Positions 20,890 through 37,905 of a DNA stretch of 40,968 nt are shown here, in pieces; the first letter of the stretch is position 1, and each line of letters starts with the position of its first letter. Origin of the DNA: a virus. Lineage: Duplodnaviria > Heunggongvirae > Uroviricota > Caudoviricetes. The stretch lies in IMG/VR virus record IMGVR_UViG_2579778871_000004, positions 1 to 40,968 of that record. One strand, given 5' to 3'. The notes below the pieces were generated by a model that saw nothing but the letters and a program-made list of their open reading frames with translations, made no database searches and was not told where the DNA came from. Both the position numbers and the translations under genes were made by a program.

Positions 20890-21174
20890 GTCATTACAAA
20901 GCCTATCTACGGGTGGGCTTGATAATGAAACCGGAATTTATTCTGGGCCACCAGTTAACGGCAGTACCACGAAACAACCCAAGCTAGTAAGTGGGGAAAT
21001 AACACTGGCAGTCACTGAAAGATGAACCTCCAGCCTTATGGCAAAAAAGATTCTTTGTGGTGGCGGACTGATGGAAAGACATCGGATAGAATCAAGCAGT
21101 GGCTAGGGTAGCTCCCGAAAAGCGGACTCGTCACCGCCTGCCACTGAATCTATGGCGAACAACAAGACGAGGTT

Positions 21175-26431: not shown

Positions 26432-27343
26432 ATGGACCAAACCACCGACATTCAGGCTTCTGAAGAATTAACCCTGCCCGGCAATCATGCAGCGGCATCT
26501 GCTGATGGCTTAGTTGTCGATAATGCCAACGACAACGCAAGTCAGGAAGAAGGCTTCGAGATTGTCCTGAAAGACGATGAGAAACCAAAACAAGACCCGG
26601 CAACTAATGCTGAATTTGCCCGTCGCCGCATCGAACGCAAACGCCAGCGTGAGCTTGAGCAGCAGATGGAAGCGGTTAAGCGTGGAGAGTTGCCGGAGCA
26701 CCTGCGGGTGAACCCTGAGTTACCAAAACAACCAGACCCTAACGATTATCTTTCCGAAGATGCACTGGCTAAGTACGGCTATGACCAGAGCCGCGCACTG
26801 GCTGCCTTCCAGCAGGCAAACAGTGAATGGCAGATCAAGGCTATGGACGCACGAAGCCAGGCTGTAGCCGAGCAGGGCCGCAAAACTCAGGAGTTCACCC
26901 AGCAATCAGCGCAATACGTCGAGGCAGCCCGTAAGCACTACGACGCAGCGGAAAAGCTCAACATCCCTGACTATCAGGAGAAAGAGGATGCATTCATGCA
27001 ACTGGTGCCGCCAGCAGTCGGTGCCGACATCATGCGCCTCTTCCCGGAGAAATCCGCTGCTCTCATGTATCACCTTGGTGCTAATCCTGAGAAAACACGC
27101 CAGTTGCTGGCGATGGACGGGCAATCCGCGCTGATTGAACTCACTCGACTGTCAGAACGTTTAACTCTCAAGCCTCGAGCCAAACCTGTTTCAGAAGCCC
27201 CGTTACCTGATGAACCCATTCAGGGACACGCTGTTGCTGCAAATATCTCTGCGATTGAAAAGCAGATGGAAGCAGCAGCAAACAAAGGGGATGTAGAGAC
27301 ATACCGCAAGCTCAAGGCGCAACTGAATAAAGGAATTCGATAA
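26432..27343 (+). CDS. Scaffolding protein (P22 gp8 type)
   Basis: 303 aa, helical, C-terminal coat-binding helix-turn-helix ...[13 protein letters not shown]. Confidence 0.85.
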
Positions 27344-28638
27344 TGGCATTAAATGAAGGTCAACTGGTCACGTATGCTCTGGATGAAATCATCGAAACCG
27401 TCCAGAACCTGACGCCAATGGCGTCCAAAGTGACAAAATACACCCCTCCGGCAGAATCCATGCAACGTTCAAGCAACACCGTGTGGATGCCTGTTGAGCA
27501 GGAAGCGCCAACTCAGACTGGCTGGGATTTAACTGGCAACGCAACCGGGATTCTGGAACTCTCCGTGAAGTGCAACATGGGCGATCCGGATAACGATTTC
27601 TTCGAGCTTCGTGCAGATGACCTGCGTGATGAGCGTTCTTACCGTCGCCGCATCCAGGCATCCGCCAAAAAACTGGCGAATAACATTGAGTCAGCGATTG
27701 CCAAACAGGCAACTGAAATGGGCTCGCTTGTTGTTCACGATACCCGCGCAATTGGTCCATCTACTGGCCTGTCTGGCTGGGATTTTGTGTCTGATGCAGA
27801 GCGCCTGATGTTCTCCCGTGAGCTAAACCGCGATATGGGCATCAGTTACTTCCTGAACCCGGACGATTACCGCAAAGCAGGCCGCAACCTGGTAGATGGT
27901 GACATCTTTGGGCGCGTTCCTGAAGACGCGTATCGCAACGGTACTATTCAGCGTCAGATTGCTGGCTTTGATGAAATTCTTCGCTCACCGAAACTTCCGG
28001 CAGTTACCAAGTCAACCGCTACTGGTGTAACTGTTTCTGGTGCGCAGAAGTTTAAGCCGCAGGCATACACCCTTGATACCGATGGTAACAAAGAGAACGT
28101 CGATAACCGTGTTGCAACGGTGACCGTATCCTCCACCACCGGATTTAAGCGCGGCGACAAAATCAGCTTCACTGGTGTGAAATTCCTGTCTCAGATGGCG
28201 AAGAACGTGCTGACTGATGATGCGACTTTCTCAATCACCCGTGTGATCGATGGTACTCACATCGAAATCACGCCGAAGCCGATTGCGCTTGATGACGCTT
28301 CACTGACAAAAGAAGAGAAGGCTTACGCTAACGTAAACACCTCTCTTGCTGATGCCACTCCGGTAAACGTTCTGAACGTGGCAACAACCACCGCTAACGT
28401 GTTCTGGGCTGATGACTCAATCCGCCTGCTGTCTCAGCCGATCCCGGTAACCCATGAACTGTTTGCTGGCATGAAAACGTCTTCCTTCAGCATTCCTGGC
28501 ATTGGTGTTAACGGCATCTTCGCAACGCAGGGTGATATCAACACTCTGTCTGGTAAGTGCCGTATTGCTGTGTGGTATTCAGCATGTGCTGTACGACCAG
28601 AGGCAATTGGTGTTGGTCTGCCTAACCAGACCGCGTGA
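27343..28638 (+). CDS. Major capsid (coat) protein (P22 gp5 type)
   Basis: 431-codon ORF recognised as P22 coat-like. Confidence 0.9.
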
Positions 28639-28645
28639 TAACCAC

Positions 28646-28670
28646 AGGGAGCTTAGGCTCCCTTTTCTAT
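28646..28670 (+). terminator. Strong hairpin terminator immediately after the coat gene
   Basis: AGGGAGC-ttag-GCTCCCT followed by TTTT. Confidence 0.6.
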
Positions 28671-28681
28671 TGGAGATACCA

Positions 28682-29275
28682 ATGAGCGTAATGATTTTTC
28701 AGGCTGGCGGAGATACCAAAATCTGGGGGCGCAAGCTGAAAACGAAAACCGTTGATCCTGATGATGTAGCTGTGCACTTAGCAAATGGCTGGTATAAGCA
28801 CCCTGACGATGTTCCTGATGATCATCTTGTTGGTGATCAAATTGGGAGTGTTGGCGGAGGTGAAACTTCCCCAGTTGATATGGGCGAAGTGTCCGACGGT
28901 TATCACACTTTTAACGAGCTTTACGCTCACCGAGTGCGCCTCTTCTCATCGCTGATGCATGCTTACGCTGAGCTTTCGTGGTGGTCTCGCAAACACAGTG
29001 ACGGTGAAGAGTGGGATGGCTGGATTATTGCTGGTATCACCACTCCAGAAGGCGAAATCACTTATCACCTACCTGTTGAAGAAATCGAGTTCCTTCCTGA
29101 AGGTACTGAGCTTGAGTTCGGGAAAGAGTGGGATGGTCATGAAGCAAATGATGTTCTTGGACGACTCCTGAGTTTGCGTCCGGCCATTGCAGAGCCAGAG
29201 CCAGAAAAAAAACAGCGTAAAAAGCCTAGTCGAAAACCTAAGGCGGCAGCAGATGAACCTGACAACGAAGGGTGA
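28682..29275 (+). CDS. Hypothetical acidic protein with Lys/Pro-rich tail (197 aa), between coat and gp4
   Basis: ATG at 28682 with RBS GGAGATACC; no family recognised. Confidence 0.5.
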
Positions 29276-29753
29276 TTTAGTCCTTGCGGCATTACGTAAG
29301 CTCGGTGTGGCATCAAATGCCACGTTAACCGATGTCGAACCGCAGTCTATGGAAGACGGCGTCAACGACCTTGAAATGATGATGGCTGAATGGCTTGGCG
29401 GTGATGTGTCACCTGGTATCAACGTTGGCTACATTTTCGCTGATGCAGATGTCGCTCCAGAACCGGGCGATGAGCACGGTTTATCAAATAACGCTATCAA
29501 TGCCGTCATTTTCAACCTTGCCTGCCGAATTGCTCCAGATTATGCGCTGGAAGCATCTGCAAAACTTATAACCACTGCCAGATACGGGAAAGAGCGACTC
29601 GTCAAACTGTCTGCAATGGACAGAGCAAAAGCCGCTAAATGTAAGTCCGGTTATCCAAACCGTATGCCTGTTGGTAGCGGTAATCAGTTGGCGAAGTGGA
29701 ATGGTTGGAATTACTTCCACCGAAAGGAACCTTGCGATAACGGGAGCGAATAA
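29253..29753 (+). CDS. Head-to-tail adaptor (P22 gp4 type)
   Basis: 166 aa from [33 protein letters not shown].., recognised as P22 gp4-like. Confidence 0.8.
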
Positions 29754-37830: not shown

Positions 37831-37834
37831 AGTT

Positions 37835-37905
37835 GAAGCCCCAACTGCGGGAACAGTCAGGGCTTCGGTTGTCAGTAAATCCGTGGAGAAAAACCAACAT
37901 GAATA
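37835..37905 (-). ncRNA. Possible sar antisense RNA locus (antisense to the ant ribosome-binding region)
   Basis: By analogy to P22 immI; inverted repeat GAAGCCC...GGGCTTC in the arc-ant spacer; boundaries not determined. Confidence 0.3.

What the first reader, a model, noticed from the sequence alone, without database searches (positions are those of the whole stretch)
28646..29275. Unknown 197-aa gene inserted between the coat terminator and gp4
Right after the strong post-coat terminator, a gene with its own RBS encodes an acidic protein with a Lys/Pro-rich C-terminal tail (..[25 protein letters not shown]). Its 3' end overlaps the gp4 start. Candidates are a capsid decoration or accessory protein, or a moron carried in the structural operon. 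I do not recognise the family.
Basis: partly seen in the sequence, partly recalled or inferred. Interest (0 to 1): 0.45.

Follow-up and report, generated by a model that had tools for sequence, protein, structure and literature searches.

The report
WDGH domain inserted in P22 orf69-like gene
The 197-aa gene is real and is the counterpart of phage L Orf186: the small gene that P22-like phages keep between coat and gp4, here carrying an inserted 'WDGH' domain of unknown function that elsewhere is fused to known phage anti-immunity proteins.

Summary
An intact ORF (28682-29275, 197 aa, pI 4.8) follows the coat terminator hairpin, has a GGAG ribosome-binding site, and overlaps the gp4 ATG by 23 nt.

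It is not an unknown inserted gene. P22-like phages normally carry a small gene in this slot (P22 orf69, CUS-3, IME10-type; phrog_1175). The window protein has that gene's N-terminal ~46-aa domain and its basic C-terminal tail. A Pfam WDGH domain (PF25311, E=1e-39) sits between them.

Orthologues with this architecture occupy the same slot in phage L (Orf186), ST104, g341c and BTP1, in 71 of 71 full-length IMG/VR loci, and in 42 of 5426 complete E. coli genomes. All are annotated "function unknown".

WDGH is a large, highly modular phage domain family with a confident predicted fold and no solved relative. Outside P22-like phages it lies in early or accessory regions. Some members are fused to Tad2, Sequestin, Acb2/Tad1-hairpin or Lar domains.

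A capsid-decoration role is not supported. The best guess is a late-expressed accessory counter-defence module, and this is inference only. The finding is a new member of a known but uncharacterised kind, of moderate interest.

The parts
27343..28638 (+). Coat protein gene (P22 gp5 homologue), upstream neighbour
   Evidence: 431-aa ORF. About 97% nt identity to the coat genes of IME10, Louie and APC_JM3.2. RefSeq copies are annotated 'P22 phage major capsid protein family protein'.
28646..28673 (+). Post-coat terminator-like hairpin (7-bp stem, loop TTAG) plus U-rich tract
   Evidence: Found by the terminator scan. RNA fold -17.5 kcal/mol, z = -2.8. The same element is annotated in P22 (stem_loop), Sf6 (t coat), HK620 (tGP5) and phage L.
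28672..28675 (+). GGAG ribosome-binding site, 6 nt upstream of the ATG
   Evidence: Read directly from the sequence.
28682..29275 (+). ORF197 (197 aa plus stop): orf69-like N-domain, WDGH domain and basic tail
   Evidence: phrog_3769 full length, E = 6.5e-100. 62% identical to phage L Orf186 over aa 1-167. Intact in four E. coli prophage copies.
28682..28822 (+). N-terminal ~46-aa domain (aa 1-47) shared with P22 orf69, the CUS-3 62-aa protein and the IME10-type 88-aa protein
   Evidence: Matches phrog_1175 at aa 1-47, E = 6e-13. P22 orf69 matches phrog_1175 at E = 4.5e-31 and phrog_3769 at 6e-9. Alignments A3 and A5. The AF2 model shows a beta-hairpin plus helix, block pLDDT 81-91.
28823..28873 (+). 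Variable Gly/Ser/acidic linker (aa 48-64), predicted disordered
   Evidence: pLDDT below 50 for residues 48-61. Length varies among orthologues.
28874..29179 (+). WDGH domain (aa 65-166; Pfam PF25311 match at aa 68-165)
   Evidence: Pfam 134.8 bits against a cutoff of 27. Block pLDDT 92-98 for residues 71-160. Absent from the otherwise near-identical APC_JM3.2/IME10 locus.
29180..29272 (+). (Glu-Pro)n linker and Lys/Arg/Pro-rich tail (aa 167-197); includes the hexamer repeat at 29190-29205 and an A8 run at 29205-29212
   Evidence: TRF finds period 6 x 2.7 copies. The tail DNA is nearly identical to that of the short APC_JM3.2 gene. Predicted disordered. Tail pI 8.7.
29253..29753 (+). gp4 (head-to-tail adaptor) homologue; its ATG lies 23 nt inside ORF197
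   Evidence: Translation [10 protein letters not shown].... RefSeq copies are annotated 'packaged DNA stabilization gp4 family protein'.

Best explanation
ORF197 is the E. coli-prophage version of phage L Orf186. It is a three-part chimeric accessory protein built on the small gene that many P22-like phages keep between the coat gene and gene 4 (P22 orf69 family).

The ~46-aa N-terminal domain and the (EP)n plus basic C-terminal tail belong to that small gene. A ~100-aa WDGH domain (PF25311) has been spliced into the disordered region between them.

The gene has no promoter of its own. It should be made late, from the Q-antiterminated late transcript reading through the post-coat hairpin, and its overlap with gp4 suggests translational coupling.

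Proposed function (inferred, not shown): the WDGH module is a portable phage accessory domain with a dense set of invariant His, Asp, Arg, Tyr and Trp residues. It would bind or hydrolyse a small nucleotide-type ligand, most likely as a counter-defence against nucleotide-signalling immunity (Thoeris- or CBASS-type). It would act at the time capsid proteins appear.

Confidence differs by claim:
- identity and architecture: about 0.95
- accessory rather than structural role: about 0.75
- counter-defence role: about 0.4
- a nucleotide immune signal as the specific target: about 0.25

The overall confidence given (0.4) is that of the counter-defence mechanism.
For: **Architecture.**
- Pfam WDGH at aa 68-165, E = 1.3e-39.
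- phrog_3769 over the full length and phrog_1175 over aa 1-47.
- P22 orf69, the CUS-3 62-aa protein and the APC_JM3.2 88-aa protein all belong to phrog_1175. They align to the N-domain and to the tail.
- The DNA alignment shows window and APC_JM3.2 nearly identical up to the terminator and again from the (GAGCCA)n repeat onward, with the WDGH segment absent from APC_JM3.2.

**Fixed position.**
- The same slot is used in phage L, ST104, g341c and BTP1 and in Xenorhabdus.
- 71 of 71 full-length IMG/VR loci lie between coat and gp4 homologues.

**Functional constraint.** pN/pS is about 0.09, and there are no non-synonymous changes in WDGH among 5 alleles.

**Optional for the virion.** Phages with ~97%-identical coat and gp4 lack the domain. 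Only 42 of the 217 E. coli genomes that match the region carry it.

**Portable accessory domain.**
- 3636 clusters at 50% identity, with protein lengths of 116-570 aa among the 150 best hits.
- 149 unrelated flank clusters among 251 proteins.
- It lies in early or accessory regions of Streptococcus, Klebsiella, Bacillus and Staphylococcus phages.

**Link to counter-defence.**
- Among 150 representatives, 6 are fused to PF21825, 1 to Tad2-like, 1 to the Acb2/Tad1 hairpin and 3 to Lar.
- PF21825 is Sequestin, a 3'cADPR sponge that was itself discovered through fusions to Tad2 and Acb4 (bioRxiv 10.1101/2025.07.12.664507).
- A Tad2-WDGH-Sequestin triple fusion lies in the late region of a Serratia prophage with a P22-type portal.
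- A WDGH-Sequestin gene is adjacent to a Tad2-like gene.

**Ligand or active site suggested.** Nearly invariant across the family are S71, D72, H75, T76, E79, Y81, H83, R84, S102, H105, D107, Y128, H129, W150, D151, H153 and R161.

**No own promoter**.
Against: - There is no experimental datum for any WDGH protein in the searchable literature.
- The ORF itself matches no known anti-defence family and no PADLOC model.
- Fusions to known sponges are a minority, roughly 5% of representatives (8 of 150 for Sequestin, Tad2 and Acb2/Tad1-hairpin; about 7%, 11 of 150, if the 3 Lar fusions are counted). Lar-type zinc ribbons are promiscuous partners.
- A small neighbour census in five other viral contigs found replication and sugar-metabolism genes, and only one Lar hit.
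- Known sponges usually have basic pockets and loose sequence conservation. WDGH is acidic (pI 4.5) and very strongly conserved, which fits an enzyme as well as or better than a sponge.
- Late expression is atypical for counter-defence, although the Serratia fusion shows it does occur.
- The fold has no solved relative, so structure gives no functional pointer.
Confidence: 0.4

Rival explanations
1. The WDGH domain is a small enzyme or ligand-binding module for phage nucleotide or nucleic-acid metabolism, or for another host-takeover task. Under this reading it has nothing to do with immune signalling, and the fusions to sponges are incidental domain shuffling among accessory genes.
For: - The many invariant His and Asp residues look catalytic.
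- One member is fused to an RNase_T/DEDD exonuclease.
- Neighbours include dUTPase, primase, DnaB, UvsX, SSB, a nucleotidyltransferase and a NADAR protein.
Against: - No similarity to any known enzyme fold.
- Recurrent fusions involve three independent families of immune-signal sponges.
- A metabolic enzyme would not be expected inside the morphogenetic operon.
Confidence: 0.25
2. The protein is virion-associated. It could be a minor capsid, decoration or internal protein. The orf69-like N-domain or the basic tail might target it to the head or the DNA, as the leader of T4 internal proteins does, and it might then be ejected into the next host.
For: - Its position is fixed between coat and the portal-binding adaptor gp4 in 71 of 71 loci.
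- It is co-expressed with head genes.
- The basic Lys/Arg/Pro tail resembles an AT-hook in some orthologues (KKRGRPTK).
- T4 Ip1-3 are a precedent for packaged anti-defence proteins (PMC12373910).
Against: - WDGH occurs mostly outside structural modules.
- The domain is dispensable among phages with near-identical coat and gp4.
- For phage L, which carries Orf186, the decoration protein described is Dec and no other auxiliary protein is mentioned (PMC6449081).
- No similarity to any decoration or internal protein.
Confidence: 0.12
3. The functional unit is the orf69-like frame. It would be a small nucleic-acid-binding or assembly/translation-coupling factor for gp4, and WDGH would be a tolerated passenger with little function of its own in this context.
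For: - The short form is far more common: 587 hits, mostly 74-98 aa.
- The tail and the gp4 start are one conserved DNA block.
- The (EP)n repeat is a plausible hotspot for illegitimate recombination.
Against: - WDGH is under purifying selection in this context.
- The fusion persists, diverged to about 52-60% identity, across annotated Escherichia, Salmonella, Pantoea, Cronobacter, Serratia, Xenorhabdus, Hafnia, Erwinia and Klebsiella sequences.
- All family-invariant residues are retained.
Confidence: 0.1

Closest known systems
Phage L Orf186 and its orthologues (ST64T, ST104 ORF54, g341c gp6, SE1 orf56, ST160, BTP1, Emek); phrog_3769
   Same: Same slot (coat terminator, then this gene, then gp4). 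Same three-part architecture. 62% identity over aa 1-167. Full-length HMM match at E = 6.5e-100.
   Different: This is an E. coli lineage with a diverged allele. The linker is different, the (EP) repeat is longer, and the tail is of the IME10 type. No member has a known function; the phage L genome paper says 'detailed function unknown'.
P22 orf69, the CUS-3 62-aa protein and the IME10/APC_JM3.2 88-aa protein (phrog_1175)
   Same: Same slot. Homologous N-terminal domain (invariant Gly, Gly-Trp and Pro). Same basic tail that overlaps the gp4 start.
   Different: These lack the WDGH domain entirely and are 62-98 aa long. They are also uncharacterised.
Pfam PF25311 WDGH domain family
   Same: Scores 134.8 bits against a 27-bit gathering cutoff. 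All family-invariant residues are present.
   Different: Only this subfamily combines WDGH with the orf69 N-domain and tail, and only this subfamily sits in a morphogenetic operon. Other members have more than 100 unrelated partner segments.
Multi-domain immune-signal sponge proteins (Tad2, Sequestin/PF21825, Acb2/Tad1, Acb4 fusions; Tal et al., bioRxiv 10.1101/2025.07.12.664507)
   Same: WDGH occurs in the same polypeptides as Tad2-like, Sequestin and Acb2/Tad1-hairpin domains, and next to a Tad2-like gene. Like them it is a small, phage-restricted, modular domain.
   Different: ORF197 contains none of those domains. No ligand binding has been shown. WDGH is acidic and far more conserved than typical sponges. 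WDGH is not mentioned in that paper.
Phage L Dec (capsid decoration protein)
   Same: Both are extra, non-essential genes of P22-like phages.
   Different: There is no sequence or fold similarity. Dec is the decoration protein described for phage L. The WDGH fold matched nothing among solved structures.
Sf6 gene 6 / HK620 hkbT (phrog_3251)
   Same: A small ORF in the same slot after the coat terminator that overlaps the gp4 homologue.
   Different: Not detectably homologous: hhalign probability 3%, and it falls in a different PHROG.

Membership tests
Pfam PF25311 (WDGH domain) | HMM score above the curated gathering threshold | tested here: met
   134.8 bits against a cutoff of 27; E = 1.3e-39; profile positions 1-97 of 97.
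Pfam PF25311 (WDGH domain) | Signature residues (SDGYHTFxELYxHR ... YHLP ... WDGH) | tested here: met
   All nearly invariant columns of the 86- and 150-sequence alignments are present in the window protein.
Orf186 / phrog_3769 orthologous group of P22-like phages | Full-length similarity | tested here: met
   phrog_3769 E = 6.5e-100 over aa 1-195. 62% identity to the phage L, ST104 and g341c proteins.
Orf186 / phrog_3769 orthologous group of P22-like phages | Synteny: immediately after the coat gene and terminator, overlapping gene 4 | tested here: met
   Seen in the window, phage L and Xenorhabdus, and in 71 of 71 IMG/VR loci.
P22 orf69 family (phrog_1175) | N-terminal domain and basic C-terminal tail | tested here: met
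   phrog_1175 E = 6.1e-13 at aa 1-47. P22 orf69 reciprocally hits phrog_3769 at 6e-9. The tail aligns and is nearly identical in DNA to the APC_JM3.2 short gene.
Moron (independently expressed insertion in a phage operon) | Own promoter, and usually its own terminator | tested here: not met
   No sigma-70-like site lies between the coat stop and the ATG. The only hairpin is the conserved post-coat one upstream. The 3' end overlaps gp4. This is a consensus scan only, so weak promoters cannot be excluded.
Moron (independently expressed insertion in a phage operon) | Present or absent among otherwise syntenic relatives | tested here: met
   The WDGH segment is absent from IME10, Louie, APC_JM3.2 and P22, while the flanks are conserved.
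Capsid decoration / cementing proteins (Dec, gpD, Soc, Hoc types) | Sequence or fold similarity to a known decoration protein | tested here: not met
Capsid decoration / cementing proteins (Dec, gpD, Soc, Hoc types) | Presence in purified virions | not testable with these tools
   Needs virion mass spectrometry or immunoblotting.
Immune-signal sponges (Tad1, Tad2, Acb2, Acb4, Sequestin, Lockin) | Sequence membership of one of these families | tested here: not met
   The only Pfam match above the curated cutoff in ORF197 is WDGH; the other listed match, DUF7302, is far below it (E = 0.56, 11.1 bits against 24.9). Lockin is reported absent from INPHARED phage genomes, whereas WDGH is present in 198 records of that INPHARED-derived collection.
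Immune-signal sponges (Tad1, Tad2, Acb2, Acb4, Sequestin, Lockin) | Binds and sequesters a signalling nucleotide; oligomer with an interface pocket | not testable with these tools
   Only a monomer model could be made. There is no ligand or multimer modelling and no biochemistry.
AT-hook DNA-binding motif | Arg-Gly-Arg-Pro core flanked by basic residues | tested here: not met
   The window tail reads KKPSRKPK. Some orthologues have KKRGRPTK or KKRGRPAK, and most have KKPGRKPK or KKPGPKPK. There is no Pfam AT_hook hit.

The most novel reading that the evidence does not exclude
WDGH (PF25311) is an unrecognised family of phage counter-defence domains that bind or cleave a nucleotide-derived immune signal. 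P22-like phages have hidden it inside a conserved small morphogenetic-operon gene, so it is made together with the capsid proteins that trigger such systems. Alternatively it is packaged through the orf69-like N-domain or the basic tail and delivered with the DNA.
Probability: 0.3. Interest if true: 0.65.

Novelty: new member of a known kind. Interest (0 to 1): 0.35.

Why it matters
If WDGH is a counter-defence module, a family of more than 3600 sequence clusters would gain a function. It is present in Listeria A511-type, Bacillus, Streptococcus, Staphylococcus, Lactococcus, Klebsiella and P22-like phages.

The window prophage and its WDGH-less IME10-type relatives would then form a natural near-isogenic pair in which to test it.

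The finding also shows that the P22 morphogenetic cluster does carry variable accessory cargo. That cluster was described as free of morons apart from the ant region (PMC2629481). Here the cargo is disguised as a domain insertion in the orf69 gene.

If WDGH has no such role, this is simply one more conserved hypothetical phage protein.

Tried and rejected
- **NCBIfam:** no hit.
- **PADLOC:** no hit for the ORF or for eight long WDGH proteins.
- **PDB sequence searches:** nothing significant with the single sequence or with a 150-sequence profile. The weak PARG and H-NOX lines have E of about 1 and were discarded.
- **Fold searches with a confident AF2 model:**
  - Foldseek against the PDB gave nothing at E <= 0.001.
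  - BFVD returned only other WDGH or uncharacterised phage proteins.
  - The afdb50 library was unavailable.
- **Literature:** searches for 'WDGH', 'WDGH domain' and 'PF25311' found nothing relevant. 'orf69' plus P22 found only unrelated ORF69s. The Gilcrease 2005 and Casjens & Thuman-Commike 2011 papers are not held.
- **Candidate identities from Tal et al.:** Lockin was rejected because it is reported absent from INPHARED genomes. Acb5 was considered unlikely only from the abstract, which places it in T2, T4 and T6; its section was not read and the T-even genomes were not searched. WDGH is not mentioned in that paper.
- **Sf6 gp6 / HkbT homology to orf69:** rejected, hhalign probability 3%.
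- **Neighbour census in five non-P22 viral contigs:** it gave replication and sugar-metabolism genes and is neutral for the counter-defence idea.
- **tblastn with the 88-aa short form:** it returned only eight close phages.
- **2H-phosphoesterase, HIT, Nudix or HD motifs in WDGH:** none is present by inspection.

Full report
**1. The observation**

The coat gene (27343-28638) is followed by a 7-bp GC-rich hairpin at 28646-28663 and a U-rich tract. As RNA the hairpin folds at -17.5 kcal/mol, z = -2.8 against shuffles.

GGAG at 28672-28675 lies 6 nt before the ATG at 28682. The ORF ends at 29275 and encodes 197 aa (22.0 kDa, pI 4.83). Its tail is Glu-Pro rich and then Lys/Arg/Pro rich, with a tail pI of 8.7.

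The gp4 homologue starts at 29253 ([10 protein letters not shown]...), 23 nt inside the ORF. No sigma-70-like site precedes the ORF. The window holds a single copy of each domain. The description is therefore correct.

The gene is real. It matches Pfam WDGH at E = 1.3e-39 and phrog_3769 at E = 6.5e-100. Five close alleles differ at 6 synonymous and 2 non-synonymous codons, the latter at positions 42 and 48, outside the WDGH domain. That gives pN/pS of about 0.09.

**2. What occupies this slot in relatives**

The post-coat hairpin and a small downstream ORF are standard in P22-like phages:

- P22 has orf69.
- CUS-3 has a 62-aa ORF.
- IME10/APC_JM3.2 has an 88-aa ORF.
- Sf6 gene 6 and HK620 hkbT are 61 aa.
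- Phage L has Orf186.

P22 orf69, the CUS-3 ORF and the APC_JM3.2 ORF all belong to phrog_1175. That profile also matches aa 1-47 of the window protein and of Orf186.

Alignments show a shared N-terminal domain (M..M.y..G......G.....v...e....l..GW..hP) and a shared tail (KKPGRKPKA..D..NEG).

At the DNA level, window and APC_JM3.2 are nearly identical through the coat end and terminator. They carry different alleles of the N-domain. They become nearly identical again from the (GAGCCA)n repeat through the tail into gp4. The ~300-nt WDGH segment is simply missing from APC_JM3.2.

So the window gene is an orf69-type gene with a WDGH domain inserted between its folded N-domain and its disordered tail. 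Sf6 gp6/HkbT is not detectably related: hhalign probability is 3%.

**3. Distribution**

- *Long form in characterised phages.* tblastn finds it at the same genome position in phage L, ST104, g341c, SE1, ST160, BTP1 and Emek, at about 62% identity.
- *Protein database.* The search returns diverged full-length relatives (52-81% identity). The named ones come from Pantoea, Cronobacter, Serratia, Xenorhabdus, Hafnia, Erwinia and Klebsiella. The Xenorhabdus copy lies between P22_CoatProtein and P22_Tail-4.
- *IMG/VR.* All 71 full-length matches lie between coat and gp4 homologues. The 8 WDGH-only matches have neither gene nearby.
- *Complete E. coli genomes.* 217 of 5426 match part of the region, but only 42 carry the whole ORF.
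- *Closest sequenced coliphages.* IME10, Louie, CurroJimenez, Dewey, HZ41 and APC_JM3.2 share coat and gp4 at about 97% identity but lack WDGH.
- *Short form.* It is much more common: 587 hits, mostly 74-98 aa, differing in the number of (EP) repeats.

The phage L genome paper lists orf186 as 'detailed function unknown', interrupting the synteny between genes 5 and 4 (PMC8022706).

**4. The WDGH domain**

An AF2 model built on 86 sequences gives these results:

- a confident N-domain (beta-hairpin plus helix, block pLDDT 81-91);
- a disordered linker (residues 48-61);
- a very confident alpha/beta WDGH domain (block pLDDT 92-98 for residues 71-160);
- a disordered tail.

The family is large, with 3636 clusters at 50% identity, and the 150 best hits are 116-570 aa long. 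Seventeen polar or aromatic positions are nearly invariant: S71, D72, H75, T76, E79, Y81, H83, R84, S102, H105, D107, Y128, H129, W150, D151, H153 and R161. That pattern is typical of a precise ligand, metal or active site.

The domain is extremely modular. Among 251 WDGH proteins, the flanking segments fall into 149 unrelated clusters.

Outside P22-like phages the gene lies in accessory positions:

- between portal and minor head protein in a pneumococcal phage;
- in early regions of Klebsiella SopranoGao and Staphylococcus phiSP15-1, the latter next to dUTPase;
- next to a NADAR protein in Bacillus phage Nate;
- just upstream of terminase in one contig;
- among replication and sugar-metabolism genes in five metagenomic viral contigs.

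**5. Clue to function**

Among 150 representatives, Pfam finds the following partner domains:

| Partner domain | Members |
|---|---|
| PF21825 (Sequestin) | 6 |
| Lar | 3 |
| Tad2-like | 1 |
| Acb2/Tad1 hairpin | 1 |
| RNase_T-type DEDD exonuclease | 1 |
| YodL | 1 |
| DUF551 | 1 |

Individual examples:

- Tad2-WDGH-Sequestin in Serratia (P0101). It lies between the lysis genes and the terminase and P22-type portal, in the late region.
- X-WDGH-Sequestin (P0075), directly downstream of a 297-aa Tad2-like gene.

PF21825 was recently shown to be Sequestin, a sponge for the Thoeris signal 3'cADPR. It was found precisely because it is fused to Tad2 and Acb4 (Tal et al., bioRxiv 10.1101/2025.07.12.664507). 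WDGH is not mentioned in that paper. It cannot be Lockin, which is reported absent from INPHARED genomes.

By the same guilt-by-fusion logic, WDGH is a candidate counter-defence module. This is inference only. The ORF contains no known anti-defence domain, only a minority of members carry such fusions, and nothing experimental exists in the held literature.

**6. Most likely mechanism**

*Shown.* The architecture, the synteny, the purifying selection, the dispensability of WDGH for the virion genes, and the portability of the domain.

*Inferred.*
- The protein is made late, by read-through of the post-coat hairpin.
- Its translation is coupled to that of gp4.
- WDGH binds or hydrolyses a small nucleotide-type molecule.
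- This blunts a host immune pathway that fires when late structural proteins accumulate.

I put the counter-defence reading at about 0.4.

*Rivals.*
- A non-immune nucleotide or nucleic-acid enzyme: 0.25. Support comes from the exonuclease fusion, replication-module neighbours and the catalytic-looking invariants.
- A virion-associated or packaged protein: 0.12. The position and the basic tail support it. Against it, the domain is optional for the virion genes, and Dec is the decoration protein described for phage L (PMC6449081).
- A passenger in an orf69 gene whose real job concerns gp4 or DNA: 0.1. Purifying selection and long-term retention argue against this.

**7. Comparison with what is known, and novelty**

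The protein is a member of Pfam WDGH and of the Orf186/phrog_3769 group. It contains the P22 orf69 module. All tested defining features of these three groups are met.

It is not a classical moron, because it has no promoter of its own. It is not a decoration protein, and it is not a member of any known sponge family.

Two points appear not to be described in the literature I could search. One is that Orf186-type genes are orf69 plus an inserted WDGH domain. The other is that WDGH is linked by fusion to Tad2, Sequestin and Acb2/Tad1 domains. Even so, the gene itself is a catalogued conserved hypothetical.

An earlier comparative paper stated that P22-like morphogenetic clusters carry no morons other than the ant region (PMC2629481). 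This domain insertion is a quiet exception.

**Verdict:** a new member of a known but uncharacterised kind, interest about 0.35. The upside is the testable hypothesis that WDGH is a new counter-defence family.

Noticed in passing
L014-L017 (E. coli RefSeq chromosomes NZ_CP020048, NZ_CP080139, NZ_CP034738, NZ_CM169495), orthologues of window 28682-29275: PGAP annotates this gene inconsistently. It appears as a 5'-truncated 'hypothetical protein' or as two pseudogene fragments labelled 'WDGH domain-containing protein'. The ORF is nevertheless intact (195-199 aa) in all four copies.
   Followed up: yes
window 29190-29212; L002 2330-2380: A (GAGCCA)n hexamer repeat encodes (Glu-Pro)n, and in the window it is followed by an A8 run. 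Repeat number varies widely among alleles: short forms are 74-98 aa and long forms 195-199 aa. The repeat coincides with the 3' junction of the WDGH insertion, so it may be a recombination or slippage hotspot.
   Followed up: partly
L001 255-782 (-), Escherichia phage Louie: An HNH endonuclease gene lies on the opposite strand between the scaffold and coat genes. It is absent from the window and from APC_JM3.2, where scaffold and coat abut. This is another variable insertion in the morphogenetic cluster.
   Followed up: no
L013 5001-5798 (Serratia prophage contig ERR3566460_90): A single 265-aa protein combines Tad2-like, WDGH and Sequestin domains. It is encoded between the lysis cassette and the terminase and P22-type portal. 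Known immune-signal sponges can therefore sit in late-operon slots of P22-related prophages.
   Followed up: partly
window 37831-37898 (-) and 21096-21158 (+): Rfam matches above the gathering score. sar antisense RNA (95.6 bits) lies in the immI/ant region upstream of the tailspike. An int-alpA sRNA (45.1 bits) lies between the lysis genes and the terminase genes.
   Followed up: no
L003 1856-2041 (Sf6 gene 6); L004 1856-2041 (HK620 hkbT): Sf6 and HK620 fill the same coat-to-gp4 slot with a 61-aa ORF of a different PHROG (phrog_3251). It is not detectably homologous to the orf69 family (hhalign probability 3%), although its tail is vaguely similar (KRGRKA..D..DKG).
   Followed up: yes
P0237 (304 aa), P0143, P0155, P0177: One WDGH protein is fused to an RNase_T/DEDD 3'-5' exonuclease domain. 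Three proteins contain two WDGH-like stretches in tandem.
   Followed up: partly
P0252 (93 aa, E. coli short orf69-type protein): The segment DAGWFSHPDDLLKD is duplicated internally at the end of the N-domain. This is further evidence of instability around the linker of this gene.
   Followed up: no
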